64,000 nucleotides of DNA from Candidatus Giovannonibacteria bacterium RIFCSPHIGHO2_01_FULL_45_24 (GCA_001778495.1 MFHE01000010.1:55292-119291), one strand, 5' to 3'. Positions 5,526-58,731 are shown, counted from the stretch's first letter. Notes: generated by a model not told the origin, from the letters alone. Translations and numbers: made by a program.

Positions 5526-6746
5526 ATGAAATGTCAAATCTGCGGGAATAAAAATCTGGAGTCGGTTCTGGATTTGGGGCATCAGCCGATTGTGCAGGCG
5601 TATCTTACAAAAAAGCAGCTCCACGAGCCGGAGGTGACTTATCCGCTGCATTTATGCCGCTGCGCGAAATGCGGCCTTTTGCAACTGGATTCAATAATTG
5701 CTCCGGAGCTTGTTTTCCCGAAAAACTACCCTTACCGCACCGGACTTACTAACATGCTTATCAGAAATTTCCGCGAGCTCGCTGGCTCTTTAGAAACAAA
5801 ATATAATCTTTCCAAAAATGACTTAATCATAGATATCGGTTCAAACGACGGAACGCTCCTTCAGAGTTTTAAAGAAAAGGGCATGCGCGTTTTGGGAGTT
5901 GAACCAACGGACGCCGCGAAAGCCGCGAACAAAAACGGCATTTCCACAATACAAGAATATTTCACAAAAAGCACAGCGAAGAAAATATTAAAAAAATACG
6001 GCAAGGCAAAAATCGTAACTGCAACCAACACTTTTGCGCATATCCCCAACCCAGTAGAACTTACGAAAAACATCAAAAGCGCGCTCGCGCCGGACGGAGT
6101 GTTTGTTTCCGAATCTCAATATCTCATGGACATAGTAGAAAAGTTTGAGTTTGACACAATTTACCACGAGCACCTGCGTTTTTATTCTCTCAAGCCCTTA
6201 ATCAAGCTTTTTGCCCTTGCCGGGATGAGCTTGATTGACGCGGAGCGCATATCGTCCTCTGGCGGCTCAATCAGAATTTTTGCAAAACCCGGTCGGCATA
6301 AAATGAGCGCGGGCGCAAGAAATCTCATGGCCGCTGAGGAGAGGGCGGGGCTTTACAACAAAGCAAAACTCCACAAATTTGCGCAAAAAGCAATAATCGC
6401 GAAAAATAATCTGCTGAAACTTTTGATTGAATTAAAACAAAAAGGCGCGAAAATAGCGGGGATAACAAGCTCCGCGCGCTCCAATACTCTTCTGGGCTTT
6501 ACAAAAATAGACAGCCAGATTCTTGACTACTCCGTGGAAAAAGCCGGGTCGCCGAAAATCGGGCTTTTCACCCCCGGAACGCATATCCCCGTGCTTGAGG
6601 AGGATAAATTATTCAAGGACCAGCCGGACTACGCCTTAGTGCTTTCCTGGCATATCGGAGAAGAGCTTATGAAAATACTTCGCAAAAACGGATATAAGGG
6701 CAAATTTATAATGCCGCTTCCAAAAGCAAGAATTTATGGAAAATAA
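5526..6746 (+). CDS. NDP-hexose C-methyltransferase-like SAM methyltransferase (TylCIII/NovU-type: Zn-ribbon Methyltransf_13 plus C-methyltransferase Methyltransf_14)
   Basis: N-terminal CQICGNKNLESVLDLGHQPIVQAYL...CRCAKCGLLQL double CxxC zinc ribbon, then class-I MTase IIDIGSNDGTLL...VLGVEPT and a C-terminal domain. Confidence 0.7.
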   Translation: MKCQICGNKNLESVLDLGHQPIVQAYLTKKQLHEPEVTYPLHLCRCAKCGLLQLDSIIAPELVFPKNYPYRTGLTNMLIRNFRELAGSLETKYNLSKNDLIIDIGSNDGTLLQSFKEKGMRVLGVEPTDAAKAANKNGISTIQEYFTKSTAKKILKKYGKAKIVTATNTFAHIPNPVELTKNIKSALAPDGVFVSESQYLMDIVEKFEFDTIYHEHLRFYSLKPLIKLFALAGMSLIDAERISSSGGSIRIFAKPGRHKMSAGARNLMAAEERAGLYNKAKLHKFAQKAIIAKNNLLKLLIELKQKGAKIAGITSSARSNTLLGFTKIDSQILDYSVEKAGSPKIGLFTPGTHIPVLEEDKLFKDQPDYALVLSWHIGEELMKILRKNGYKGKFIMPLPKARIYGK

Positions 6747-7827: not shown

Positions 7828-7930
7828 GTAAAACATTGGTCAACCTGCCAGGTTGACCCATTAGAACTCGCCAGCAAAATCATTTTGGATTTTCACGACG
7901 AGTTATTTGCGCCGTAAATTCAAAAATGAG

Positions 7931-25345: not shown

Positions 25346-27166
25346 CTATTTACTAAACGCATACAAATAAATATTGTTTGACGCGGCAACCTCTCTTAAA
25401 TTTTCAGAAAGGGGCGATAAATCCCATTCCGGATTTTTGTTTTTGTCCCAAACGATGTAATTGACCTCGCCCTTCTTCAAAATGCCCGCAATGCCTTCCG
25501 GACTGGCTACTTTTTGATATTCTCGGAAAAGCAAAGCAGACATTTCGGCCCTGCTTTTAATCACCGCCGGGTCGCCCTTAGCCAAACGAAAACCATATTC
25601 TTCGTAATCAAAACCGGAGTTAAAACCAGCCACAAAAAAGTAAATAAGCGGGTAAAAACTAGTCCCCCATTCGCCCCCGACTCCGTATCCGGCATCCACA
25701 TCGCGAAGCCGGCCCAAAAAATTGTCTCTCGCGTCCTTATCCAAATACATATACACGTATAGCGAGTCGGTAATTCTCTCCATTGGCGTGTTATAAACTA
25801 AAGCCGTAGCATGGCCCCAAAATAAATCATGATGCGTGTACACCGGAAATAACATTGCGTAGGGTAGGGATGACGCGAGAACAACTCCCGGTTCGGCGTC
25901 CGATTTCAATGCGTCAATAATCGGGCGGTAGTTCTGCCTGTATTCTTTGGCCTCCCGCGTAATCAGCGTCACCTGATACTGCCGCGAAGCCGCATTAAAA
26001 TAAGCGGCAATAATCAGCGCCGCCAAAAAAATGGTTCCGTATTTTCGCAACATTAATTTCCCGCGCTCCGCGCCACATACAAGCGCCCATCCGAGGTAAG
26101 CCCCGACGACGATAGAAGTTGGTATTGTAAAATACCAAAAATAGTGCATTAGTTGCGGGACTCGTCCGGTAATTACCTGCTGGTTCAATGCTATCCAATT
26201 TGCGAGAACAACAGACAAAAGCAGCGGAGCGTTCTTGCCCCATTTATTCCGGTACGCAAAAATAATGGACAAAATCAAAACCAAAAATAAAATTTTGCTG
26301 AACGGCGCCGGGGCATGATTCAAAGTAGTCCCATAATACAAAATCTGCTTGCCGATTTCGGAATACTGAAATGAAAATGTTTTAAAAAGAGTGTAAGCGC
26401 CAACGGCAAGCCCGATGGCTGAAACCCAAAAAACTTTTTTCGCTGATTCCCAATCGCGCAGACAAAGATAAATCAAAAACAAGCTCCCTGTCAGCGCCGA
26501 GGCGAAAGTCCATGTGTAGGGGTAAACGTAAAACAGCGCTCCGAATGCAATGCCGGACCAAAGAACATGTTTTCTCTCCGATGATTTCAAACTTCTTGCA
26601 AGCAAATTAATGTAAATAAAAAGCGCAAGAAGCCCGTAAACTGGCATTATTGGCCGGGAAAATATGTTGGGGTCCGGATTGGTTGCAGTAATCGGCACAT
26701 GATAAAGCTTCACTAAACTGTAGCCGCCTATGGTAAATAGCGCTATCGCCGCGGACAGCAACTTATGCGCGGAGAGGCGCAGTATGAAAAAGTAAATAGA
26801 GAAAATCAAAAGAACAACGCCCAAAAAAGCGTAAAGAGTGTATACAGGAACAATATAATCTACCGCTGCGCGAGAAAGCCCCAGCAGTTTAACCGGCGCG
26901 AGAAGAAGATATTCTATATAAACCTGGTGCGGGTCGGACGAATCGTTTTTGCCGATTTTAAGAAAAATATTGCCCAAAGAGTGGCCTTCCAGAATTTCCC
27001 TGCCTTTGGCGATATAGTGGAAGTCGTCCGACCACTCGCCAATATTTATGCCCTTATACGCATCGCCGGCCATAAACGGGAAAAGCAGGGCCGGCGATAT
27101 CACCAAAAGCGCCAAACCGACGGCGGAGCTCAATATAAATTTATGTTCGGTAAAAAAATTAGACAT
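25346..27166 (-). CDS. Polytopic membrane protein, GT-C-like glycosyltransferase candidate (family A, member 2)
   Basis: About 60% identical to the adjacent 27171..28907. GEWSDDFHYIAKGREILEGHSLGN first-loop acidic motif. C-terminal ...YIVWDKNKNPEWDLSPL. Confidence 0.45.
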   Translation of the reverse strand: MSNFFTEHKFILSSAVGLALLVISPALLFPFMAGDAYKGINIGEWSDDFHYIAKGREILEGHSLGNIFLKIGKNDSSDPHQVYIEYLLLAPVKLLGLSRAAVDYIVPVYTLYAFLGVVLLIFSIYFFILRLSAHKLLSAAIALFTIGGYSLVKLYHVPITATNPDPNIFSRPIMPVYGLLALFIYINLLARSLKSSERKHVLWSGIAFGALFYVYPYTWTFASALTGSLFLIYLCLRDWESAKKVFWVSAIGLAVGAYTLFKTFSFQYSEIGKQILYYGTTLNHAPAPFSKILFLVLILSIIFAYRNKWGKNAPLLLSVVLANWIALNQQVITGRVPQLMHYFWYFTIPTSIVVGAYLGWALVCGAERGKLMLRKYGTIFLAALIIAAYFNAASRQYQVTLITREAKEYRQNYRPIIDALKSDAEPGVVLASSLPYAMLFPVYTHHDLFWGHATALVYNTPMERITDSLYVYMYLDKDARDNFLGRLRDVDAGYGVGGEWGTSFYPLIYFFVAGFNSGFDYEEYGFRLAKGDPAVIKSRAEMSALLFREYQKVASPEGIAGILKKGEVNYIVWDKNKNPEWDLSPLSENLREVAASNNIYLYAFSK

Positions 27167-27170
27167 GTAT

Positions 27171-28907
27171 TTATTTCAACGCATACAAATAAATATTGTT
27201 TGACGCGGCAATTTCTTGAAGTTTGTCGGCAAGCGGGGAGAGGTCCCACTCCGGATTGGTATTCTTGTCCCAGACAATGTAATTAACGTCAGCTTTCTTT
27301 AAAATATTAATGATTCCTTCGGGGTCGTCAACTATCTTTTTGTATTCGCCGGAAAGCAAATCTATGGTTTTCTCTCTGCTTAAAGCGGCATAGATTGATG
27401 AGTAGTGGCGCCCATATGCTTTTTTAATCCCGCCGGCGTCTATCTTATAAAGCGCGCCGGCAAAGTCGCCTCTGGCCTCCTTATCCAAATACGCGTACAC
27501 ATAAAGCGCGTCTTTCATTCTTTCTGCAGGGGTAGCGAAATTGAACGCGTGCATGGCCCAAAATAAATCATGGTCGGTATAGACTGAAAAAAATCTTCCA
27601 TAAAAAAGATCGGAACTTAAAATGACCCCGGGCGCGGTATCGCGGTTTAATGCGTCAATAATCGGGCGGTAGTTTTGCGCGTATTCTTTGGCATCCCAAA
27701 TCACAAGCATTCTAGCGTATTGCCGGCTGGCAGTATTTAAAAAAGCGATGACGATTACAATGCCGAGCAAAGCGCTTCCGTATTTTCGCAATATTAATTT
27801 CCCGCGCTCCGCGCCCCACACAAGCGCCCACGAAACATAAGACCCCACCACAATGGAAGTAGGAATGGTAAAGTACCAAAAGTAATGGTCAACGCCTTGC
27901 GGATCGCGCCCGGTAATTACCTGCTGATTCAGAGCTATCCAGCTGGCTAGAATAATCGCCAAAAGAATCGGGTAATCTTTTTTGCCGCGGTTTCTGAAAG
28001 CGTAAATAATTGCCATAATCAAAATCAAAAAAGAGAGCTTGCTGAAGGGCGCGGGGGCGTGAGAAATAAACGTTGTAAAGCCGGCGATTTGTTTGCCGAT
28101 TTCCGAAGACATAAGCAACGCTAATAAAACAAGGGCGTAAGACCCGATGGCAAGCCCGATGGCTGAAACCCAAAAAACTTTTTTCGCTGATTCCCAATCG
28201 CGCAGACAAATATAAATCAAAAACAAGCTCCCTGTCAGCGCGGCGGCAAACGTCCATGTAAAAGGATAGACGTAAAACAACGCGCCGAAAGAAATTCCCG
28301 CCCAAAAGACGCGCCTCCATCCCGATTCACGCAAACTTTTTGCCAGTAAATTTATATAAATAAAAAGCGCAAGAAGCCCGTAAACGGGCATTATTGGTCG
28401 GGAAAATATGTTGAAATTATAGGCGACGGCGGTAACTGGAAGGTGGTAAAGCTTTACTAACTCATAGCCGCCCACTGTAAATAAAGCGGCGGCGGCTGAC
28501 AGCAATTTATTGTCGGACAAATGCAGAATAAAAAAATAAATAAATAAAACCAACAAAGCAACTCCCAAAAAAGTATAAAAGCCGTAAAGCACCACGATAT
28601 GATTTTTCGCGACGCCGGAAAGCCCCAATAGTTTTACCGGCGCCAGCAATAGGTAGTCTATATAAGTCTGGTGCGGGTCGGACGAATCGTTTTTGCCGAT
28701 TTTCAAAAAAGTATTTCCCAAAGAATGGCCTTCCAGAATTTCCCTTCCTCTGGCGATGTATGCCGCGTCGTCGTCCCATTCGCCAAGATTGATGCCATTA
28801 TACGCATCGCCGGCCATAAACGGGAACATCCACGAAGGCAAGAGGATTAAAAACGCAAGCAAAATCGCGCAAACAAAAATAAATTTATGCTCTGTAAAAA
28901 ATTTCAT
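27171..28907 (-). CDS. Polytopic membrane protein, GT-C-like glycosyltransferase candidate (family A, member 3; tandem paralog)
   Basis: GEWDDDAAYIARGREILEGHSLGN. C-terminal NYIVWDKNTNPEWDLSPL. A 93-nt near-identical tract is shared with member 2. Confidence 0.45.
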   Translation of the reverse strand: MKFFTEHKFIFVCAILLAFLILLPSWMFPFMAGDAYNGINLGEWDDDAAYIARGREILEGHSLGNTFLKIGKNDSSDPHQTYIDYLLLAPVKLLGLSGVAKNHIVVLYGFYTFLGVALLVLFIYFFILHLSDNKLLSAAAALFTVGGYELVKLYHLPVTAVAYNFNIFSRPIMPVYGLLALFIYINLLAKSLRESGWRRVFWAGISFGALFYVYPFTWTFAAALTGSLFLIYICLRDWESAKKVFWVSAIGLAIGSYALVLLALLMSSEIGKQIAGFTTFISHAPAPFSKLSFLILIMAIIYAFRNRGKKDYPILLAIILASWIALNQQVITGRDPQGVDHYFWYFTIPTSIVVGSYVSWALVWGAERGKLILRKYGSALLGIVIVIAFLNTASRQYARMLVIWDAKEYAQNYRPIIDALNRDTAPGVILSSDLFYGRFFSVYTDHDLFWAMHAFNFATPAERMKDALYVYAYLDKEARGDFAGALYKIDAGGIKKAYGRHYSSIYAALSREKTIDLLSGEYKKIVDDPEGIINILKKADVNYIVWDKNTNPEWDLSPLADKLQEIAASNNIYLYALK

Positions 28908-31830: not shown

Positions 31831-32521
31831 TCCAGTTTATAACGATGCCGCCCACATCGGCAAGAGCGTGGAGGCGCTGATGAATTTTATCCAGAGCGAA
31901 AATTTAAACGCTGAAGTTTTGATAATAAATGACGGAGGCAAAGACGCCACGGCAAAAATAGTTGAAGAGAAATTAAAAAAATATCCGGCGATCCGTTTTA
32001 TAAATAGGGCAAAAAATATAGGCAAAGGCGCGAGTGTGCGCGAAGGCATCGCCACCTCCTCCGGTAACGTCATTATTTTTACCGACGCAGATTTGCCGTA
32101 CGGCACAAAGCATTTTAAAGAAATGATTGAGTTTCTGCGTTCATGGAAAGCTGATTTGGTTATCGCAAACCGCCACCTGTGGTCAACCTGGCAGGTTGAC
32201 CAATTTGGCATTAGCACTGTAAGACGTCTTACTCATTGGAGCTTCGGGTTTTTAGTCCGAAATCTTTTGCATTTGAGATTTTCAGACACCCAAGCGGGAC
32301 TTAAAGGAATGAGTCATAAAGCGGCGGGGGTGATTCTCCCGAAATTAAATATCAACGGCTTTGCTTTTGATTTGGAGCTTTTGGTTGAAGCCCAAAAAGC
32401 CGGCCTAAAAATCCAGGAGGTTCCGGTGGTTTTGGAAAACGCCGGCCAGTCAAATATCAAAATAGCCAGAGATTCTCTCCGGATGCTTATAGATATAATT
32501 AAAATCTGGCTTAGCTACTGA
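31778..32521 (+). CDS. GT2 Dpm1-like polyprenyl-phosphate sugar synthase
   Basis: ISIIIPVYNDAAHI...VLIINDGGKDAT...IIFTDADLPYG...VIANRH. Confidence 0.7.
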   Translation: MPPQKATASLAPEISIIIPVYNDAAHIGKSVEALMNFIQSENLNAEVLIINDGGKDATAKIVEEKLKKYPAIRFINRAKNIGKGASVREGIATSSGNVIIFTDADLPYGTKHFKEMIEFLRSWKADLVIANRHLWSTWQVDQFGISTVRRLTHWSFGFLVRNLLHLRFSDTQAGLKGMSHKAAGVILPKLNINGFAFDLELLVEAQKAGLKIQEVPVVLENAGQSNIKIARDSLRMLIDIIKIWLSY

Positions 32522-42002: not shown

Positions 42003-42997
42003 CTCATATTGGCGATAATTGTTTCAATCAGGTTTTCAAGATTGTGATTTTTTATAACCAACTCGCGCAAAGCCAAATTTTTTCCGGCGCCGGCCGTTTG
42101 AACAATTTTTCCCGCAATCACTGCGGCGTCCTTCGGCAAAACTGCAAGCAGACTTTTAAACGCTTCGCTGGTGGTTATTATCGGAAGCCCGCAGGACATT
42201 GCTTCCAGCACCACCTTGTCCATGCTGCCGGTTTCGCTCGCATGAAGCAAAATATCGTGGCTGTTGTAGATATCCTGCATTTCGTCTTGATTCTTTGCGC
42301 CCAAAAATATAACTCTGCCGCGCAAATTTTTCTCCAAAACCAGCATTTCCAGCTTCCTTTTATATGTAACGTCCGCCTTTGTAATTGGTTCCCCAACTAT
42401 ATCTAAAACCGCATTCCCGCTTGCTAAACTAACAACTTCAAGAATAAACTCGTAATCTTTGGATGGAGTAATCCTCCCCACGCTAAGAAGTTTAAGCGCC
42501 CCGGTTTTCAGCATATTTTTCGGCTTAAAACGCTCGGTATCAATGCCGTGTCCAGTGACCATAATTTTTTTAGAGCGGAGCCGGCAGCTTTCCGGCGAAG
42601 CCGTGAAAATTTTTGCAACTAGTTTTTCGGCGAGCCGCAAAGAAGATGTCACTGATTTGTGAGTATACCATAAATATATTTTTTTTTTGAAAATCGCCGC
42701 CGCAGGCCAAGCGAGAATAACCCAGATTTGGATCATATGCACAAACACGGCGTCGGCTTTTGGCAGTGCAGAAAACAGATATTTATAAAAATTTATATAG
42801 CGCATGATTCTGCCAATTTTCTTTTCTTTTCCCAAAGAAAAAACTTGAACGTTAGCCGGCAAGCTGTATTTGCCAATAAAATTCGCCACGACAAAAACTT
42901 TGTCGGCTCTTTCTGCAAGCTCCTCCAGCCAGCGATGGAAAAATCCTAAATTGTCGTCCTCCTTATCAACTTTTTGAGTGAAAATTAAAAGATTCAT
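41999..42997 (-). CDS. GT4 glycosyltransferase
   Basis: C-terminal ...FLGAKNQDEMQDIYNSHDILLHASETGSMDKVVLEAMSCGLPIITT. Confidence 0.65.
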   Translation of the reverse strand: MNLLIFTQKVDKEDDNLGFFHRWLEELAERADKVFVVANFIGKYSLPANVQVFSLGKEKKIGRIMRYINFYKYLFSALPKADAVFVHMIQIWVILAWPAAAIFKKKIYLWYTHKSVTSSLRLAEKLVAKIFTASPESCRLRSKKIMVTGHGIDTERFKPKNMLKTGALKLLSVGRITPSKDYEFILEVVSLASGNAVLDIVGEPITKADVTYKRKLEMLVLEKNLRGRVIFLGAKNQDEMQDIYNSHDILLHASETGSMDKVVLEAMSCGLPIITTSEAFKSLLAVLPKDAAVIAGKIVQTAGAGKNLALRELVIKNHNLENLIETIIANMR

Positions 42998-44019
42998 TTT
43001 TTATGCGCGCATACTTCAAAACTGCTTTTATATAACCTTAAATAATCTTCTTTTGTTTGAGAAACAAGCGGCTTGGGGGGAGGCAATTTCAGGTTTAAAG
43101 CCGAGCTCAATTTTTCGGCCAAATCGCTTTTGTCGCCGACTTTGAAAACACATTCCGACTCCAAAATTTCCGACGCGATACCGACATCGCTTGATACAAT
43201 TTTTGCACCCGCAGCAGCGGCCTCAACCAGCGTGCGCCCATACCCTTCGTAATTGGAAGTTAGCAAAAATAAATCACAAGTTTTGTAGTAAGAAACAAGG
43301 TCGGGGGCGTGAGGTTCAAATTTAACATTTCTTTCCAACTTTTCACTTTGAACTTTTAACTTTAAACTTTCTAGCTCCGGCCCGTTTCCGACAATAAGAA
43401 GTAGGGAGCTTAAGGGGTGGGTTATTAGCCCCCCCACCGCCTCAATCGCCAATCCGATATTTTTTTCTTTTGTTATCCGCGAAGCCATTAAAATTATGAA
43501 CCGCCCGGGATATTTTTTATAGAGGTCTGTTTTGATAAGCGCGTTTCTTATTTTTTCAATATCAACAAAAATTGGTAAAGCGGTGATGTTAGAAATTAGA
43601 AATTGGAAATTAGAAATTAGCGAAAGTTTAATTCTTTCTGAAACAACTCTTATGCAGTCCGCCCTCGGAATCAAAAACTTCGCCAACGCCACCCTCAATT
43701 TGTTCAAAACCGAGCTTTCAACAAATTGATGGCTAAAAATATCGGCGTGTATTTGCATTTGAAATGGAACCTTAAAAAATTTTGAAAACGCCCACGCCAG
43801 AAGCGCGTGTTCAACATCCTGCGCCGTAATCACATCGTATTTTTTATGCCAAAGTTTCTTAAAACCGGAAAAAACTGCGCCAATAAATCTAAAAATGTTT
43901 CCGTAAGCGAGCAAAACATCCAGCCCGCCGAGCGTTTTGCGATATTCTTCCATTCTTTTGCACGCTTCTGACCGCGGATTTACAATACTCGGGTCTCCAC
44001 TTATCATTAGGACTTTCAT
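42994..44019 (-). CDS. GT4 glycosyltransferase containing two internal heptanucleotide tandem arrays
   Basis: IVGNGPELESLKLKVQSEKLERNVKFEP...LLTSNYEGYGRTLVEAAAAGAKIVSSDVG (GT4 EX7E region). Confidence 0.6.
   Translation of the reverse strand: MKVLMISGDPSIVNPRSEACKRMEEYRKTLGGLDVLLAYGNIFRFIGAVFSGFKKLWHKKYDVITAQDVEHALLAWAFSKFFKVPFQMQIHADIFSHQFVESSVLNKLRVALAKFLIPRADCIRVVSERIKLSLISNFQFLISNITALPIFVDIEKIRNALIKTDLYKKYPGRFIILMASRITKEKNIGLAIEAVGGLITHPLSSLLLIVGNGPELESLKLKVQSEKLERNVKFEPHAPDLVSYYKTCDLFLLTSNYEGYGRTLVEAAAAGAKIVSSDVGIASEILESECVFKVGDKSDLAEKLSSALNLKLPPPKPLVSQTKEDYLRLYKSSFEVCAHKK
43336..43370. repeat. Imperfect heptanucleotide tandem array (NNACTTT x5) inside a GT4 coding sequence
   Basis: caacttt tcacttt gaacttt taacttt aaacttt. 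The 7-nt period is incompatible with codon periodicity. Confidence 0.55.
43590..43617. repeat. Heptanucleotide tandem array TAGAAAT x4 (one unit TGGAAAT) inside a GT4 coding sequence
   Basis: tagaaat tagaaat tggaaat tagaaat. Encodes LISNFQFLISN on the minus strand. Confidence 0.6.
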
Positions 44020-46241
44020 AATAATATTTTAATAGTTTTATTAATCATCCTCTCTTTTGAAAATTCGCTGGATTTTTGGGAGGCAGCTTCGCTAAGTTTT
44101 TTGGCAAATTCAGGATTTTTCAAAATATCCAGAATTTTTGTTTTTAGTGCCTCCTTATCATTGAATTTTACCAAAAAACCTTCTTTGTTGTTTTCAATAA
44201 GCTCCGGATTGCCGCCGGCGTCAGTAGTCACAATGGGAACGCCGAGTGCCATCGCTTCTAAAATCTGGTGTGAAAATCCTTCGTAGGCGGTGTTGAGCGT
44301 AAAAATATCGGCGGTGCAGAGATATTCCAAAACTTTTTCGCGAGGAAGATTGCCAGCAAGAATAACGGTTTTTTGTAATTTGTAATTTGTAATTTGTAAT
44401 TTGAGCTTCTCATGCTCCGGCCCATCACCAACTATTACCAATTTTGCATCCGGCGCTTCTTTTAAAATCTCCGGCATAATCTCAAGTAAAGCGTCAAACC
44501 CTTTCCATGGAACAAGACGGCCGGCTGAAACAATCAACTTAGACGTCGGACGTCTAAGTTGATGTCCGGCGCCTTCAAAATCAAACGCATTATAAATAAC
44601 ATGAATCTTTTTTGGATTTACGCCCCACGCCGTAACAACCTTTTTTAAATACTCGCTCGGCACAATGACTTTCTCTGCACGATTTGCAACAAATTTTTGG
44701 ATTTTACGCAAAAGCTCAACTTCCCACCGATACTTATTTTTCGAAAAATCATCTAAAACTTCCTTCACTCCAAATCGCTGAACCCCCTGCTCCCAAGCGT
44801 AATCGCCGACGATTTTGAGCAAAAACTTCTTGCGCAAGATTTTAGCGGCGAGCGCGGCCGGTAATCCAACGCTCGCCGGGTCCTGTGCGAAAATAATATC
44901 TGCATTTCTGCCGCAAGCCATAAGCTTCAAGCCGTAGATAAAATGGCGAATTATTTTCGGCCAGCGCCGAACTGACCTGAAATTTAAAATCCTCGCTCCA
45001 AAGTTTTTTTTTGGCAGCTCATCCAATAAAGTTTTGCTGTAAGTTGCAGGTCCTCCAACTTCCGGCGGGAAAATGCCGGTCGCAATCAAAACTCGTTTTT
45101 TAATATTAAACTCATGATTAAAAATGTCCGCGTAATTTTTTGCGATTTTACCCCAAGAAAATCTTTCCTCAATCATTTTTCTGCCGTTTGCGATAATTTT
45201 TTGTACCAGCGCTCTATCCTCCAGCAAAATTTTTATTTTACCCGCCAAATCTTTCGGGTCATCAACTTTGGCAAATAATCCAGTTTCGCCATCTTTTATA
45301 ATATCCGAAATCCCTCCGACAGGCGTGCCGATAATCGGCAACCCTGCGGCCAGCGCCTCCACAAATGCGTTGCCCATCCCTTCCGAGCGCGACGGGCGCG
45401 CGAAAACATCGGCTTGGGCGAGGCATTTCGGTAAATCATCATAAGGAACTTCGTCGAAAAACTCTACATCTGCCTTAAGCTTTAAGCCATACGTCATATG
45501 CTCAAGCCGTTTACGCTCCGGGCCGTCGCCAATTATATGCAGCTTAACAGCCAGAGTGTCTTTTTTGAGTTCGGCAACCGCCTTAATTAAAATGTCCACG
45601 CCGTTTTTCGGAACAAGCCGGCCGACGGTGATTATCGTTTTAAAATTTGCTTGAAATTTGGAATTTAAATTTTGGAATTTTCGTATATCTACTCCGTTAT
45701 GTATTACCGCCCCATCGCCGATATAACCGTATTGCTTGCACAAATTAAGCAAATAATTTGATATTGCAGTGACATAGTCCGCTTGCATTAAAATAAGCCG
45801 AAACGCCAAATTCATAAGCCCGAGTCTGCCCTTAGTCACTCTTTCCTCTCCGTAGCCGTACTGAATTGTAAAAACTAAGGGGATTTTTGAATAAAAAACT
45901 TTCAGAAGTCCGGCTGTAGCGGCTCCGAAGGAAAAATCCACAACCCAAAAAATTATTCTGCCGCGGTGTTTTTTCGCCTCTCGTAAGACCCTAAACCACC
46001 CAAAAAACAAAAGCCAAAATTTATCAAAGCGATTTCCAAATCCAACTCTAACCACCAATCCCTCATCTCTCACTTCCCTTTTCGGCAAATCACGGCGCAT
46101 GCTGGAAGTAAAAATTATAAAATCAAACCTGTCTTTGAGTCTTTTCGCAACTTGTTCAATCGCAACCTCCGCTCCGCCGATGAACGGCAAATAGGCAGTA
46201 GAAAAAACAAAAATCACGGGCTTTTTGAGCTCATCTTTCAT
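44016..46241 (-). CDS. Double GT4 glycosyltransferase (two tandem GT-B/GT4 modules in one 741-aa protein)
   Basis: Two complete GT4 units, each with ...GRLVP.KG...GDGPE...EGF...EA.A.G.PI. patterns. Confidence 0.7.
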   Translation of the reverse strand: MKDELKKPVIFVFSTAYLPFIGGAEVAIEQVAKRLKDRFDFIIFTSSMRRDLPKREVRDEGLVVRVGFGNRFDKFWLLFFGWFRVLREAKKHRGRIIFWVVDFSFGAATAGLLKVFYSKIPLVFTIQYGYGEERVTKGRLGLMNLAFRLILMQADYVTAISNYLLNLCKQYGYIGDGAVIHNGVDIRKFQNLNSKFQANFKTIITVGRLVPKNGVDILIKAVAELKKDTLAVKLHIIGDGPERKRLEHMTYGLKLKADVEFFDEVPYDDLPKCLAQADVFARPSRSEGMGNAFVEALAAGLPIIGTPVGGISDIIKDGETGLFAKVDDPKDLAGKIKILLEDRALVQKIIANGRKMIEERFSWGKIAKNYADIFNHEFNIKKRVLIATGIFPPEVGGPATYSKTLLDELPKKNFGARILNFRSVRRWPKIIRHFIYGLKLMACGRNADIIFAQDPASVGLPAALAAKILRKKFLLKIVGDYAWEQGVQRFGVKEVLDDFSKNKYRWEVELLRKIQKFVANRAEKVIVPSEYLKKVVTAWGVNPKKIHVIYNAFDFEGAGHQLRRPTSKLIVSAGRLVPWKGFDALLEIMPEILKEAPDAKLVIVGDGPEHEKLKLQITNYKLQKTVILAGNLPREKVLEYLCTADIFTLNTAYEGFSHQILEAMALGVPIVTTDAGGNPELIENNKEGFLVKFNDKEALKTKILDILKNPEFAKKLSEAASQKSSEFSKERMINKTIKILL
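44373..44400. repeat. Perfect heptanucleotide tandem array TTGTAAT x4 inside the double-GT4 coding sequence
   Basis: ttgtaat x4, preceded by tttt. Encodes KLQITNYKLQ on the minus strand, in the GT4 C-domain upstream of the EX7E motif. Confidence 0.65.
44532..44562. repeat. 31-nt perfect palindrome ATCAACTTAGACGTC-G-GACGTCTAAGTTGAT inside the double-GT4 CDS (copy 1 of 2)
   Basis: Arms of 15 nt around one central base. The 24-nt core is identical to 58597..58620. Confidence 0.6.
45651..45678. repeat. Imperfect heptanucleotide array (TTGAAAT/TTGGAAT-like x4) inside the double-GT4 CDS
   Basis: ttgaaat ttggaat ttaaatt ttggaat. Confidence 0.4.
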
Positions 46242-46261
46242 CTAGTTAATTATATAACGCT

Positions 46262-47773
46262 CTAAGCCCAATATCGTTTGCCCAAAAAGAAAATGAGAGC
46301 CGCCACTACGCCGACGCCGAGTCCAGCGAAAAGCCAGAAGTAATCTCTGCCCCAAAAAGCTCGCGTGCCTCCTGGGTTCTCAATATTTATTACGGAAGCT
46401 GTTTGGGAAAGCGGACTTTTGAGCGCGTCCGCCGGCTTTGCTGCCGAAGCAATGGGCGCTGTTTTTTTGGCGATTTCATTCTTTGCCCCAGGAGTTGCGC
46501 GAGCCACAATCCAAGCGTTGTTTTCAAAATTTAAGCTTTCCTCCTTAGCAAGCGCCAAAACCGGGTAATTTAAAGAAGACATAATGGAACCGTTTGGATA
46601 AATAAATTTTACTTCTCCCCCGTAAGCAGGTAGCAAGAAGCCGAGAGTGGTGGTGCCCAAAACCAGCGCCGCGTAAGGGGCAACAAATGTATTTTCTGAA
46701 AATGTAAATACTTTATCTCCGCATGAGAGGCCAAATCTTGATATTTCAATTTTCCGCGAGGAATTATTTTTGATTTCAATCCAGCCATCCGGCCCAGTTT
46801 TAATTTCTGAAATCGTGAGCGGGCTCGCCATGACAGCAATATTGACCGTATCCATTGCAGAATACTCGCCCGACGAAACATTCAAAGAAACTGTGTATAC
46901 GCCCGGATAAAGAAAAACGTGTCCAATTTTTTCGCCGTCTAAAATAGGCGAGCCATCACCGAAATTCCACGAAAATCTTGCGCCGTCCAAAGGCTCGCCG
47001 GCAAGGCCCTCCGCAAACCCGTCAAAAAATATTGTTGCCCCGGCTATCGCCGAGCGGTCCTCTCCCGCATAGGCCTTGATTTGCGCAACCGGCCTGGGCG
47101 CAACCGAACCACTGGTTTGAGTTTCAGAAACGGACGCGTCCGTAGCGTCGCTTTCTTCCGCTGGCGGCGTTGAGTCCGGAGCCGGATCGGATATAGTCCA
47201 GCCGATTATGCTTGCGCGCTGATTGAAATCGTTTAACTTTAAAACTTTTCCTTCGTATCCCCCGGAAATATCAATGAAAGCCCCGGCAGTCCAGATACCA
47301 GCGCTTGCGGCAGTTGTCTCCCAAGTTTTTTTTTCGGAACTCCCGGGATTATGGTATCTTACATAAGAAACAATTGTGTCCTTGGAATGAGTCGTGCTTG
47401 AAAAAAGCGCAAGCGAGCCGGAGGAATTTCCCATATTGCCGGAAGCGGCCGGAAAATATAAATTTGCGTCGTCGTCCGCGCCGCTTGCGCGGAGGTGGAT
47501 TTCAACTGACGCCCCGGCGTTCAAAACAAAGTCCGGAAAGGCAAAATAGCCAATGCCGTCCGGATATAAATGCCAGCCGGATAGATTTATCTGCGAAGCG
47601 CCAAAATTTTTTACGACAACGTATTCCAAACTCGTATCATTTACTCCAGCCGGGTCAGATAAGATTTCATATATCGCCACATCGCCAGCGGCCCCAAAAG
47701 CAAAATCTGCTCCGCCAAGCAACGCCATAACCAACAAAAACCGCCACCGTTTCATTACCGATGAGTTTAACAT
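46262..47773 (-). CDS. Secreted, membrane-anchored surface protein: signal peptide, lamin-tail domain (LTD), Ser/Thr/Pro-rich linker, PKD domain, second LTD, C-terminal TM anchor
   Basis: N-terminal signal peptide MKRWRFLLVMALLGGADFAFGAAG. VAIYEILSDP...EYVVVKNFGASQINLSGWHL and LTISEIKTGPDGWIEIKNNSSRKIEISRFGL are LTD-like. FSWNFGDGSPILDGEKIGHVFLYPGVYTVSLNV is PKD-like. The linker is DPAPDSTPPAEESDATDASVSETQTSGSVAPRP. C-terminal WLFAGLGVGVVAALIFFLGKRYWA. Confidence 0.6.
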   Translation of the reverse strand: MLNSSVMKRWRFLLVMALLGGADFAFGAAGDVAIYEILSDPAGVNDTSLEYVVVKNFGASQINLSGWHLYPDGIGYFAFPDFVLNAGASVEIHLRASGADDDANLYFPAASGNMGNSSGSLALFSSTTHSKDTIVSYVRYHNPGSSEKKTWETTAASAGIWTAGAFIDISGGYEGKVLKLNDFNQRASIIGWTISDPAPDSTPPAEESDATDASVSETQTSGSVAPRPVAQIKAYAGEDRSAIAGATIFFDGFAEGLAGEPLDGARFSWNFGDGSPILDGEKIGHVFLYPGVYTVSLNVSSGEYSAMDTVNIAVMASPLTISEIKTGPDGWIEIKNNSSRKIEISRFGLSCGDKVFTFSENTFVAPYAALVLGTTTLGFLLPAYGGEVKFIYPNGSIMSSLNYPVLALAKEESLNFENNAWIVARATPGAKNEIAKKTAPIASAAKPADALKSPLSQTASVINIENPGGTRAFWGRDYFWLFAGLGVGVVAALIFFLGKRYWA

Positions 47774-58209: not shown

Positions 58210-58731
58210 TCACCCGATTACCACTACCTTTCCTTTCCAGATTTTTAGAAATTCCGACAGATTTAAAAACTTAAATTCGCCGTCTTTGCGGGTATAGGCG
58301 TTTGGGTCGTGAATATAAAATCCCTCCGGAACATCACCGCCCTCTTCCAGCCCGACAATCAAAACAAGGTGCCCCCCGCCAGTGTTTTTCATGGAAGCCA
58401 AAACCGGAATTTCTTTTTTTAAAAATTCAGCCAGATATTTTACGGCTTCATTCTTTTTGTCCTCCGCCCATTCTTTCCTAAACGAATTTTCAAATCCGTG
58501 TTTTTTGGCAAGCTCCACCAACCCCTGATGAATCCAGCCGACACCGTTTAAATACGCGCCGGATGCAAGCCCTTCTTTTATTAAATCATCCAAATTCCCT
58601 AACTTAGACGTCGGACGTCTAAGTGAATCCATAGCCATCGCAAGCGCGCAAATCCCGCAGCTGCGCCATTTCCATTCGGGGTCTAAGATGTCCAAACGTT
58701 GGGAATAATATGGCGCGCCGAGTTTCATCAC
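58210..58731 (-). CDS. Peptidase C39-like (papain-fold) domain protein
   Basis: PYYSQRLDILDPEWKWRSCGICALAMAM matches the Peptidase_C39_2 pattern (YYQ...CGpaslaM). Confidence 0.55.
   Translation of the reverse strand: MMKLGAPYYSQRLDILDPEWKWRSCGICALAMAMDSLRRPTSKLGNLDDLIKEGLASGAYLNGVGWIHQGLVELAKKHGFENSFRKEWAEDKKNEAVKYLAEFLKKEIPVLASMKNTGGGHLVLIVGLEEGGDVPEGFYIHDPNAYTRKDGEFKFLNLSEFLKIWKGKVVVIG
58597..58620. repeat. 24-nt palindromic core AACTTAGACGTC-G-GACGTCTAAGT inside the C39-like peptidase CDS (copy 2 of 2)
   Basis: Identical to the core of 44532..44562. Both copies encode LRRPTSKL in frame. Confidence 0.6.

What the first reader, a model, noticed from the sequence alone, without database searches (positions are those of the whole stretch)
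43336..45678. Heptanucleotide tandem arrays inside two adjacent GT4 genes: candidate slipped-strand phase-variation switches
Two neighbouring GT4 glycosyltransferase genes carry four separate arrays with a 7-nt period. They are TTGTAAT x4 (perfect, 44373..44400), TAGAAAT x4 with one variant unit (43590..43617), NNACTTT x5 (43336..43370) and an imperfect TTGRAAT x4 (45651..45678). A 7-nt period cannot come from amino-acid repeats, so these are DNA-level slippage products. Gain or loss of one unit would frameshift the enzyme upstream of its catalytic EX7E region. This is the logic of contingency loci that switch surface-glycan genes on and off in pathogens, not previously a feature expected in this kind of genome.
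Basis: partly seen in the sequence, partly recalled or inferred. Interest (0 to 1): 0.65.

Follow-up and report, generated by a model that had tools for sequence, protein, structure and literature searches.

The report
Length-locked 7-base repeats in glycosyltransferase genes
Three glycosyltransferase modules of a groundwater Giovannonibacteria (CPR) genome carry short in-frame 7-base tandem repeats; the same kind of repeat sits at the same spots of related genes across Parcubacteria, so they are real DNA-level repeats that could act as frameshift switches, but no copy-number change or switched-off allele was found.

Summary
The fourth, at 45651-45678, is not above chance on its own. Period-7 arrays are the only tandem repeats of period 2-15 in 233 kb of the window plus related loci. 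All 20 found lie in intact GT4 genes of Parcubacteria. Sixteen of the 20 sit either just after the GxGPE strand (12) or in the linker after NGVD (4).

A few unit types recur: AATTACA, AATCTCA, AAAGTTT and AGAATCT. The exact 32-nt (AATTACA)x4.6 array of the window is also in a paralogue of about 47% identity from a German aquifer. Arrays whose pure unit would give an in-frame stop all carry interrupting substitutions; in the two window arrays checked, A1 and A2, the variant base replaces the would-be TAA.

So these are DNA-level, slippage-type repeats, and one unit gained or lost does frameshift upstream of EX7E. However, copy number is nearly fixed at 4.3-5.4. It was identical in 12 assemblies of this population, and every array is in frame. 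A search of about 15 billion proteins found no frameshifted allele of gene B. Known heptanucleotide switches in the papers read have up to 38 units (pglE 15) and vary between strains.

Verdict: a lineage-wide, length-locked coding microsatellite. It is at most a low-rate switch, and phase variation is unproven.

The parts
44372..44403 (-). Perfect heptanucleotide array. Coding strand: CAAATTACAAATTACAAATTACAAATTACAAA, unit AATTACA, 4.6 copies. Encodes LKLQITNYKLQK, aa 613-624 of gene B (second GT4 module), directly after the VGDGPE strand.
   Evidence: The identical array is at the homologous site in L026 and in an A-type paralogue in L035.
43589..43620 (-). Heptanucleotide array. Coding strand: CTAATTTCTAATTTCCAATTTCTAATTTCTAA, unit ATTTCTA, 4.6 copies with one variant unit. 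Encodes LISNFQFLISN, aa 134-144 of gene A. The variant unit turns an in-frame TAA into CAA.
   Evidence: The AF2 model places it in the C-terminal half of helix 128-138 plus the loop before strand 145-147. One end of the 54-aa deletion variant P0122 lies here.
43337..43370 (-). Degenerate heptanucleotide array, AAAGTTN x4.9. Encodes SLKLKVQSEKLE, aa 218-229 of gene A, directly after the VGNGPE strand. The pure unit AAAGTTT would give an in-frame TAA, which reads CAA here.
   Evidence: L029 has the same unit at the same site with the same length. In the model it covers helix 216-225 plus the following loop.
45651..45681 (-). Weak array with a period of about 7-8 (AAATTCC-like). Encodes RKFQNLNSKFQ, aa 187-197 of gene B, in the interdomain linker after NGVD of the first GT4 module. 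Probably a decayed array.
   Evidence: Not significant alone. The same linker site holds clear 7-nt arrays in L032, L034 and L035.
42994..44019 (-). Gene A: GT4 glycosyltransferase, 341 aa, EX7E at 258-266.
   Evidence: Pfam Glycos_transf_1, 1.1e-27. AF2 model pLDDT 92.7..
44016..46241 (-). Gene B: fusion of two GT4 modules, 741 aa, EX7E at 287-295 and 654-662. The fusion is conserved in Giovannonibacteria and Sungbacteria. The two halves are separate genes in L013 and L033.
44533..44563 (.). Perfect 31-nt palindrome ATCAACTTAGACGTC-G-GACGTCTAAGTTGAT. It lies in the interdomain linker of gene B module 2 (peptide HQLRRPTSKLI, aa 560-570). This linker is a hypervariable site of the same kind as those that hold the arrays.

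Best explanation
The arrays are genuine heptanucleotide microsatellites embedded in frame in GT4 genes. They belong to a class found across Parcubacteria. In that class a run of about 30 nt (4-5 units of 7 nt) occupies one of a few structurally permissive helix-loop or linker sites of the GT-B fold. The commonest site is the helix and loop right after the GxGPE strand.

Shown: the arrays are DNA-level, specific to period 7, specific to GT4 genes and to these sites, and always in frame.

Inferred mechanism:
- The arrays are kept repetitive by replication slippage or by misalignment-templated conversion.
- Each base of a homogenised 7-nt unit is read in all three codon positions, so no site is silent. 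Selection on the peptide therefore constrains the whole unit.
- Selection for an open frame locks the length. It also forces point interruptions wherever a pure unit would create TAA or TAG.

Mechanically, each perfect array is a frameshift hotspot: plus or minus one unit truncates the enzyme before EX7E, and the change is reversible. In the sampled populations the ON length is fixed. Any switching is therefore rare, and its adaptive use as a contingency switch is not demonstrated.
For: - Period specificity: in 233 kb (the window plus 17 loci) the only tandem arrays of period 2-15 are 11 of period 7. With L034 and L035 the total is 20, all in intact GT4 ORFs.
- Gene specificity: 11 of 11 strong arrays lie in GT4 genes, which make up 25.6% of the Parcubacteria DNA scanned; p = 3e-7.
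- Protein-level echo in 240 homologues: runs of 3 or more residues with s[i]=s[i+7] number 109, against 19-50 for other periods. Runs of 4 or more number 27, against 2-9.
- Site specificity: 12 arrays after GxGPE, 4 in the post-NGVD linker, 3 before the (V/I)LPxF(V/I)D strand at the end of the N-terminal domain (ALPIFVD in gene A), 1 elsewhere. The AF2 model shows each covers a helix end plus a loop.
- DNA-level identity beyond the peptide: the identical 32-nt array is in window gene B, in L026 (68% aa identity) and in an A-type paralogue of about 47% identity in L035.
- Different units at homologous sites with no length change (AATTACA vs AGAATCT at the gene B module 2 site) point to concerted turnover.
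- Stop avoidance: 9 of 9 arrays whose pure unit contains a stop are interrupted. All 6 perfect arrays have stop-free units.
- Length lock: 2.7-5.4 copies in GT4 genes, against 3.3-14.3 for the same unit in mostly non-coding viral DNA.
- No variation: 12 assemblies are identical at all arrays, and there is no OFF allele in the protein collection.
- Frameshift consequences were simulated.
Against: - Why only period 7 occurs (never 4, 5, 8 or the frame-neutral 3, 6, 9) is not explained by slippage plus tolerance alone.
- Perfect arrays that persist in distant paralogues need ongoing homogenisation, or selection for repetitiveness itself. The latter would favour a true contingency function.
- The same unit appears at different sites and in several genes of one locus (L034, L035). 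This hints at ectopic copying or a sequence-specific role that this model does not predict.
- Consensus assemblies cannot show minority variants, so rare switching is neither shown nor excluded.
Confidence: 0.5

Rival explanations
1. Classical contingency loci. The arrays are selected for their mutability and switch GT4 modules on and off at useful rates by slipped-strand mispairing. This diversifies the surface glycan of a CPR episymbiont against phages or for host attachment.
For: - Non-triplet unit inside the ORF, with frameshift before EX7E.
- Several GT modules of one glycan cluster are affected.
- Repetitiveness is retained across Parcubacteria and in distant paralogues, as expected if mutability is selected.
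- Constant ON length with unit turnover is what ON-OFF-ON cycling under a strict length constraint would leave behind.
- Precedent: the heptanucleotide switch in the pilin-glycosylation gene pglE (PMC7157529, PMC1976384).
Against: - 0 of 20 arrays are out of frame, including about 8 in neighbouring genes that were not used for retrieval.
- No length difference among 12 assemblies, nor within the 90% clusters of P0001 and P0007.
- No OFF product among about 15 billion proteins.
- Tracts are 4-5 units, and half are necessarily interrupted. Known or candidate heptanucleotide tracts reach 6-38 units (pglE 15) and vary between strains (PMC2651432, PMC1976384).
- The arrays lie mid-gene at a fixed structural site rather than early in the ORF.
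Confidence: 0.22
2. Sequence-specific recombination joints. The shared ~30-nt arrays, and the palindromes at the same sites, serve as in-register crossover points. Homologous or site-specific recombination at these points would swap segments between GT4 paralogues or strains, in the manner of a shufflon or cassette system.
For: - The same array, in the same register, is found in different paralogues.
- An inverted pair of AATTACA arrays lies 3.6 kb apart in two opposed GT4 genes of L034.
- The genes are mosaics, with blocks of 90-98% nt identity next to blocks of 40-60%.
- BLAST blocks against L028 end at the B1 array and at the palindrome.
- A divergent 160-nt patch in L012 ends 35 nt from the palindrome.
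- P0245 diverges right after GDGPEH, a few residues before the array.
Against: - No rearranged or inverted arrangement was seen in any locus.
- In the window all four arrays have different units and all the genes are co-directional.
- 30 nt is short for RecA-dependent exchange, and no recombinase gene was found in the cluster.
- Block boundaries may simply reflect hypervariable sites that break alignments.
Confidence: 0.1
3. Chance low-complexity sequence, or a peptide-level heptad repeat of an amphipathic helix in an AT-rich genome, with no DNA-level process involved.
For: The arrays encode K/L/N/Q/I-rich helix-loop peptides at tolerant surface sites. The fourth array is within chance expectation.
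Against: - Shuffles give zero arrays of this strength.
- No other period is enriched at the DNA or the protein level.
- Perfect identity at silent codon positions, including the non-preferred TAC, across distant paralogues.
- A peptide repeat does not require the 7-nt sub-period.
Confidence: 0.03
4. An RNA- or transcription-level element inside the coding region, such as an internal promoter, a terminator, a riboregulator or a ribosome-pausing signal.
For: The position at domain and sub-domain boundaries could suit co-translational pausing. The palindrome at 44533-44563 would form a strong hairpin in RNA.
Against: - No Rfam family anywhere in the window.
- No promoter-like or terminator-like site at any array, and counts in the region are at or below shuffle expectation.
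- Unit sequences differ between sites, so only the periodicity is conserved. No known RNA or promoter element needs that.
- Tandem AATTACA has no self-complementarity.
Confidence: 0.05

Closest known systems
Neisseria pglE (pilin/protein O-glycosylation gene) phase variation by a CAAACAA heptanucleotide tract
   Same: A 7-nt unit sits inside the ORF of a gene whose product adds a sugar to a surface glycan. One unit gained or lost shifts the frame. Several genes of one glycan pathway carry repeats (PMC7157529, PMC1976384, PMC10425976).
   Different: The pglE tract lies early in the ORF. It is long (15 copies in the gonococcal strain studied), differs between isolates, and is found in both ON and OFF states. 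Here the tracts are 4-5 units, lie mid-gene at fixed fold positions, have invariant length, and are always ON in the data available.
Haemophilus influenzae simple-sequence contingency loci, including heptanucleotide SSRs (hmw1A/hmw2A promoters, TonB-dependent receptor genes)
   Same: Non-triplet SSRs are associated with surface-structure genes. Heptanucleotide units of similar AT-rich composition occur, for example an AATTTTG x14 tract inside an hmw1A ORF (PMC2651432).
   Different: Those tracts range from 1 to 38 units and differ between strains, with frameshifted alleles observed. No such variation was found here.
Ordinary neutral microsatellites of AT-rich genomes
   Same: The very unit AATTACA forms tandem arrays in AT-rich viral contigs.
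   Different: There the arrays are mostly outside long ORFs and span 3.3-14.3 copies. In Parcubacteria they lie inside GT4 ORFs, at defined sites, with 4.3-4.7 copies for this unit.
Selfish palindromic insertions in coding regions (Rickettsia palindromic elements; recalled from memory, not tested)
   Same: Compared with the palindromes seen in passing, not with the arrays. An identical 23-nt palindrome is read in frame in two unrelated genes.
   Different: RPEs are about 100-150 bp and have many copies per genome. Here there are 23-34 nt and two copies in 64 kb. No link to the 7-nt arrays is shown beyond the shared sites and the tandem GACGTC heptamers within the palindrome arms.

Membership tests
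SSR-mediated contingency (phase-variable) locus | Tandem repeat tract, with a unit not divisible by 3, inside the ORF or promoter of the regulated gene | tested here: met
   Period-7 arrays inside genes A and B.
SSR-mediated contingency (phase-variable) locus | Tract length differs between strains, isolates or samples | tested here: not met
   12 assemblies are identical. The 90% clusters show no length variants at the arrays. There are 4.3-4.7 copies of AATTACA in 6 genes from 5 organisms. Minority variants in reads could not be examined.
SSR-mediated contingency (phase-variable) locus | Out-of-frame (OFF) alleles exist alongside ON alleles | tested here: not met
   0 of 20 arrays are out of frame. 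No protein carries the frameshift tails of gene B.
SSR-mediated contingency (phase-variable) locus | Uninterrupted tract long enough for high slippage rates | tested here: inconclusive
   One perfect 32-nt tract; the others have 12-16 nt perfect runs. Known or candidate heptanucleotide tracts reach 6-38 units, with pglE at 15 (PMC2651432, PMC1976384). No rate data exist for 4-5 units.
SSR-mediated contingency (phase-variable) locus | Measured reversible switching of phenotype or expression | not testable with these tools
   The organism is uncultivated and no reads were available.
SSR-mediated contingency (phase-variable) locus | Frameshift abolishes function | tested here: met
   A change of +/-7 or +/-14 nt gives stops at aa 139, 219-228, 190-203 and 659-676. 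All are before, or run out of frame through, the EX7E of the module.
GT4 glycosyltransferase (GT-B fold, Pfam Glycos_transf_1) | Significant match to Glycos_transf_1 / Glyco_transf_4 profiles | tested here: met
   Gene A 1.1e-27. Gene B 1.9e-93 with two stretches of each domain.
GT4 glycosyltransferase (GT-B fold, Pfam Glycos_transf_1) | EX7E motif in the C-terminal domain | tested here: met
   A 258-266 EGYGRTLVE, with E258 and E266 invariant in 45 homologues. B 287-295 and 654-662.
GT4 glycosyltransferase (GT-B fold, Pfam Glycos_transf_1) | Two Rossmann-like beta/alpha/beta domains | tested here: inconclusive
   The AF2 model of gene A (pLDDT 92.7) has alternating strand-helix elements in two halves. 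No fold comparison was run.
Site-specific recombination shufflon (e.g. hsdS-type) | Inverted repeats in paralogous genes, a nearby recombinase, and alternative arrangements | tested here: not met
   The window arrays have different units and its genes are co-directional. No recombinase domain was found in the 17 ORFs scanned with Pfam, between 30391 and 59855. No alternative arrangement was seen in 12 assemblies. One inverted pair exists in L034 only.

The most novel reading that the evidence does not exclude
Parcubacteria (CPR) may carry a conserved, built-in glycan-diversification device. Length-locked cassettes of 4-5 heptanucleotide units would sit at fixed permissive positions of many GT4 modules. 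They would be kept perfectly repetitive because they act as reversible frameshift switches, or as in-register recombination joints. The result would be combinatorial variation of the cell-surface glycan in uncultivated episymbionts. This would be the first contingency system described in the CPR, and one whose ON length is dictated by the protein fold.
Probability: 0.25. Interest if true: 0.8.

Novelty: new variant of a known kind. Interest (0 to 1): 0.58.

Why it matters
Phase variation is known almost only from host-associated pathogens and commensals. Full-text searches of the paper library found no paper that links it to CPR/Patescibacteria.

A repeat class that is specific to period 7, to GT4 genes and to a few fold positions, and that is conserved from a Colorado aquifer to a German one, is hard to explain by chance or by peptide selection. 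It points either to a new, fold-constrained form of contingency locus, or to an unrecognised mutational or recombination process in these reduced genomes.

It is directly testable with existing deep metagenomic reads. It also gives a simple sequence signature for finding more cases: a 7-aa self-match in the peptide just after GxGPE.

Tried and rejected
- Rfam scan of the whole window: no family found.
- Promoter and terminator scan of 42900-46400: nothing at the arrays, and counts at or below shuffle expectation.
- Search for OFF alleles: the out-of-frame tails of gene B after +/-1 unit matched nothing. The 90% cluster members of lengths 614, 141 and 123 aa are contig-end fragments or allelic variants, not frameshifts. 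P0245 ends in GDGPEHGNLN and may carry a different array allele, but its DNA is not on record.
- The idea that the arrays are insertions: rejected. Three of the four sites have the same length as in the 53%-identity orthologue L013, which has no repeats.
- The idea that the conserved array in L026 proves long-term stability: weakened. It lies in a short block of high third-position identity (0.8-0.9) inside a gene of 70-79% identity, so recent exchange is possible.
- The contig end of L026/L027 just after gene B: it is not a break in an A orthologue. A different small gene and a terminator lie there.
- Viral contigs: the palindrome is absent. AATTACA arrays there are unrelated, mostly non-coding microsatellites, and were used only as a length control.
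Full report
**What is there**

The window is from Candidatus Giovannonibacteria (Parcubacteria, CPR) of the Rifle aquifer. The proteins of both genes are identical to entries named RIFCSPHIGHO2_01_FULL.

The finding lies on the minus strand of a glycan-synthesis cluster. The cluster holds PMT_2-type transferases, GT2 and GT4 genes, and an asparagine-synthase homologue. It is followed by a lamin-tail/PKD protein gene and SecD.
- Gene A (42994-44019, 341 aa) is a single GT4.
- Gene B (44016-46241, 741 aa) is a fusion of two full GT4 modules. The fusion is conserved in Giovannonibacteria and Sungbacteria, while L013 and L033 have two separate genes.

**Check of the observation**

- TTGTAAT x4 is perfect. 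Its full extent is 44372-44403, 4.6 copies.
- TAGAAAT x4 has one variant unit (43589-43620).
- NNACTTT x5 is degenerate (43337-43370).
- The array at 45651-45678 is weak. TRF calls it period 8 with indels.

Shuffles give no period-7 segment as strong as the first three. A Markov control expects 0.04 segments of score >=12 per 64 kb, against 3 seen. The fourth array is within chance.

On the coding strand the units are AATTACA, ATTTCTA, AAAGTTN and roughly AAATTCC. They encode:
- LKLQITNYKLQK (gene B, aa 613-624);
- LISNFQFLISN (gene A, aa 134-144);
- SLKLKVQSEKLE (gene A, aa 218-229);
- RKFQNLNSKFQ (gene B, aa 187-197).

All are upstream of the EX7E of their module. Adding or removing one or two units gives a stop before, or out of frame through, that motif. 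In A1 and A2 even an added three units gives a stop, when the first unit is the one duplicated, because the pure unit contains TAA.

**Where the arrays sit in the protein**

An AlphaFold model of gene A (pLDDT 92.7) puts A1 on the end of helix 128-138 and the loop before strand 145-147. It puts A2 on helix 216-225 and the loop before strand 232-235.

The gene B module 2 array is at the position equivalent to A2, directly after the GxGPE strand. The gene B module 1 array is in the linker after NGVD, between the two Rossmann-like halves.

Compared with L013 (53% identity, no repeats), three of the four sites have the same length. The arrays therefore replace sequence rather than add to it.

**Population and orthologue evidence on copy number**

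Twelve loci from independent assemblies of Rifle samples carry this region. All are 98.2-100% identical without gaps, and every array is identical. The 31 differences of L012 are confined to 44597-44754.

Because the look-up is by exact protein, only the partner gene is an unbiased sample. That still gives about 10 observations of the gene B module 2 array and at least 2 of the gene A arrays.

The 90% clusters of gene B and of its 68%-identity orthologue P0007 hold no member with a different length at the array. A query made of the two out-of-frame tails that gene B would acquire after +/-1 unit found nothing among about 15 billion proteins.

**The wider pattern**

This is the main result. Orthologous and paralogous GT4 genes from other Parcubacteria carry the same kind of array at the same sites.
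- L026 has (AATTACA)x4.3 at the homologous site, and an AACTACT-type array in module 1.
- L029 has AGAATCT/AGAATTT x4.9 and AAAGTTT x4.4.
- L031 has AAATCTC x5.4.
- L032 has a perfect AGCTACA x4.7, plus CAAATTA x2.7.
- L033 has ACTATAA x4.6 and AAAATTT x3.9.
- L034 has two AATTACA arrays and a CTAAAAG array.
- L035 has a perfect CAAATTA x4.6 identical to the window array, plus two AATCTCA arrays.

In 233 kb (the window plus 17 loci, including non-CPR outgroups) the only arrays of any period from 2 to 15 that pass a three-copy criterion are 11 of period 7. All are in Parcubacteria GT4 genes. Those genes make up 25.6% of the Parcubacteria DNA scanned, so p = 3e-7.

The pattern is visible in proteins alone. 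Among 240 homologues, runs of three or more residues with s[i]=s[i+7] number 109, against 19-50 for other periods. Runs of four or more number 27, against 2-9. Typical peptides are KLQITNYKLQ, NLKFKIKNLKL, NLKSQISNLK, SYKLLVKSYKL and NLESRIKNLEL.

**What this says about mechanism**

1. The repeats are a DNA-level feature. A peptide repeat needs no 7-nt sub-period. The 32-nt array is identical at silent positions in window gene B, in L026, and in an A-type paralogue of about 47% identity from the Hainich aquifer.

2. Homologous sites hold different units without any length change. At the gene B module 2 site, AATTACA stands against AGAATCT, matching at 2 of 7 positions in register. So the units turn over in concert, by slippage cycles or by misalignment-templated conversion.

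3. The open reading frame shapes the arrays. All nine arrays whose pure unit contains TAA or TAG are interrupted; in the two window arrays checked, A1 and A2, the variant base replaces the would-be TAA. All six perfect arrays have stop-free units.

4. Length is locked. There are 2.7-5.4 copies, mostly 4.3-4.9. The same AATTACA unit spans 3.3-14.3 copies in 41 mostly non-coding arrays of viral contigs.

5. In a homogenised 7-nt array every base serves as codon position 1, 2 and 3 in turn. No unit-wide change is silent, which can explain why a few unit types persist.

**Is it a phase-variation switch?**

The logic is sound, and there is a direct precedent: pglE of Neisseria, switched by a CAAACAA tract (PMC7157529, PMC1976384). 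But the defining behaviours of contingency loci were not found. There is no length variation between samples, strains or species. There is no OFF allele in 20 arrays, about eight of which lie in neighbouring genes not used for retrieval.

The tracts have only 4-5 units, and half are interrupted. Phase-variable or candidate heptanucleotide tracts in the papers read reach 6-38 units (the AACAACC tract ranges 1-13 between strains; pglE has 15), differ between strains, and pglE's lies early in the ORF (PMC2651432, PMC1976384).

On the other hand, retaining perfect, frameshift-prone repeats in many GT4 modules over deep divergence is what selection for mutability would produce. A constant ON length with unit turnover is what ON-OFF-ON cycling under a strict fold constraint would leave.

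I therefore rate a live, length-locked coding microsatellite that is at most a rare switch as most likely (0.5). A true adaptive contingency function rates 0.22, a recombination-joint role 0.1, an RNA or transcription element 0.05, and chance 0.03.

**Still unexplained**

- Only period 7 occurs.
- The same unit appears at different sites and in several genes of one locus (L034, L035).

**Other tests**

- No Rfam family anywhere in the window.
- No promoter-like or terminator-like site at the arrays.
- No paper in the library links SSR phase variation to CPR or Patescibacteria.

**Related things seen**

The same hypervariable sites sometimes hold perfect palindromes instead of arrays.
- A 31-nt palindrome lies at 44533-44563 in the gene B module 2 linker. 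It is also in L026 and L031, and its 23-nt core is in a C39-like peptidase gene at 58602-58624.
- L028 has a 34-nt palindrome of GGACGTC heptamers where the window has array A1.
- From the peptide TWRLGRQVA I predicted a palindrome, and then found one in L031.

The GT4 genes are also mosaics of near-identical and divergent blocks between species.

Noticed in passing
window 44533-44563 and 58602-58624; L026 4706-4736; L031 7461-7483: A perfect palindrome, ATCAACTTAGACGTC-G-GACGTCTAAGTTGAT, lies in gene B. Its 23-nt core recurs in frame in an unrelated C39-like peptidase gene (58210-58731) and encodes LRRPTSKL in both. None is expected by chance. The core is also present in two other Giovannonibacteria species. 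RPTSK-like peptides occur in the same hypervariable loop of some peptidase homologues (P0259, P0287).
   Followed up: partly
L028 5641-5674; L031 8403-8435: At the site of window array A1, other species carry perfect palindromes instead. L028 has GGACGTCGGACGTCCGTTCGGACGTCCGACGTCC (peptide RTSDVRSDVRRP), whose arms are tandem 7-nt units. L031 has ACTTGGCGGCTCGGCCGCCAAGT overlapping a second palindrome (peptide TWRLGRQVA). The palindromic nature of the second was predicted from the peptide before the DNA was seen.
   Followed up: partly
window 44016-46241 compared with L026, L028 and L029; L012: The GT4 genes are mosaics between species. Blocks of 90-98% nt identity (third codon positions 0.8-0.93) alternate with blocks of 40-60%. 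L012 is identical to the window except for a 160-nt patch of about 20% divergence (44597-44754), which ends 35 nt from the palindrome. This suggests frequent short-patch recombination among co-occurring Giovannonibacteria.
   Followed up: partly
protein P0122 (SRR3989344) vs window 43596-43760: A variant of protein A carries an in-frame 54-aa deletion (PFQ|...|ISN). One end point is inside array A1 and the other is at a similar TTTCAA(A)T motif. This is either a microhomology deletion or an assembly artefact.
   Followed up: no
window 7838-7858 and 32180-32202: A second repeated palindrome, (T)GGTCAACCTG-C/G-CAGGTTGACC(A), occurs twice. The first copy lies between convergent ORFs, so it is probably terminator-like. 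The second lies inside overlapping ORFs of the glycan cluster.
   Followed up: no
B-type homologues P0003, P0006, P0008-P0011, P0013, P0014, P0016-P0018, P0020, P0022, P0023, P0027 (alignment; second block): Many orthologues of gene B lack a whole segment in one of the two modules, about 25 aa in module 2 and about 25-47 alignment columns in module 1. The missing segment runs from GxGPE through the array-bearing helix and the next strand (for example KLFILSNEPK--EK and LKIVSD--VP). This is a recurrent deletion of exactly the segment that carries the repeat.
   Followed up: no
L034 3033-3065 (minus-strand gene) and 6661-6691 (plus-strand gene): Two AATTACA arrays form an inverted pair 3.6 kb apart in two opposed GT4 genes. 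One is in the interdomain linker of its gene and the other is after GxGPE. This geometry could allow inversion between the arrays. No alternative arrangement was available to check.
   Followed up: no
window 25346-28907: Two adjacent ORFs of about 600 aa (25346-27166 and 27171-28907) share many exact 14-16-mers at a constant offset of about 1744 nt, so they are a recent tandem gene duplication.
   Followed up: no
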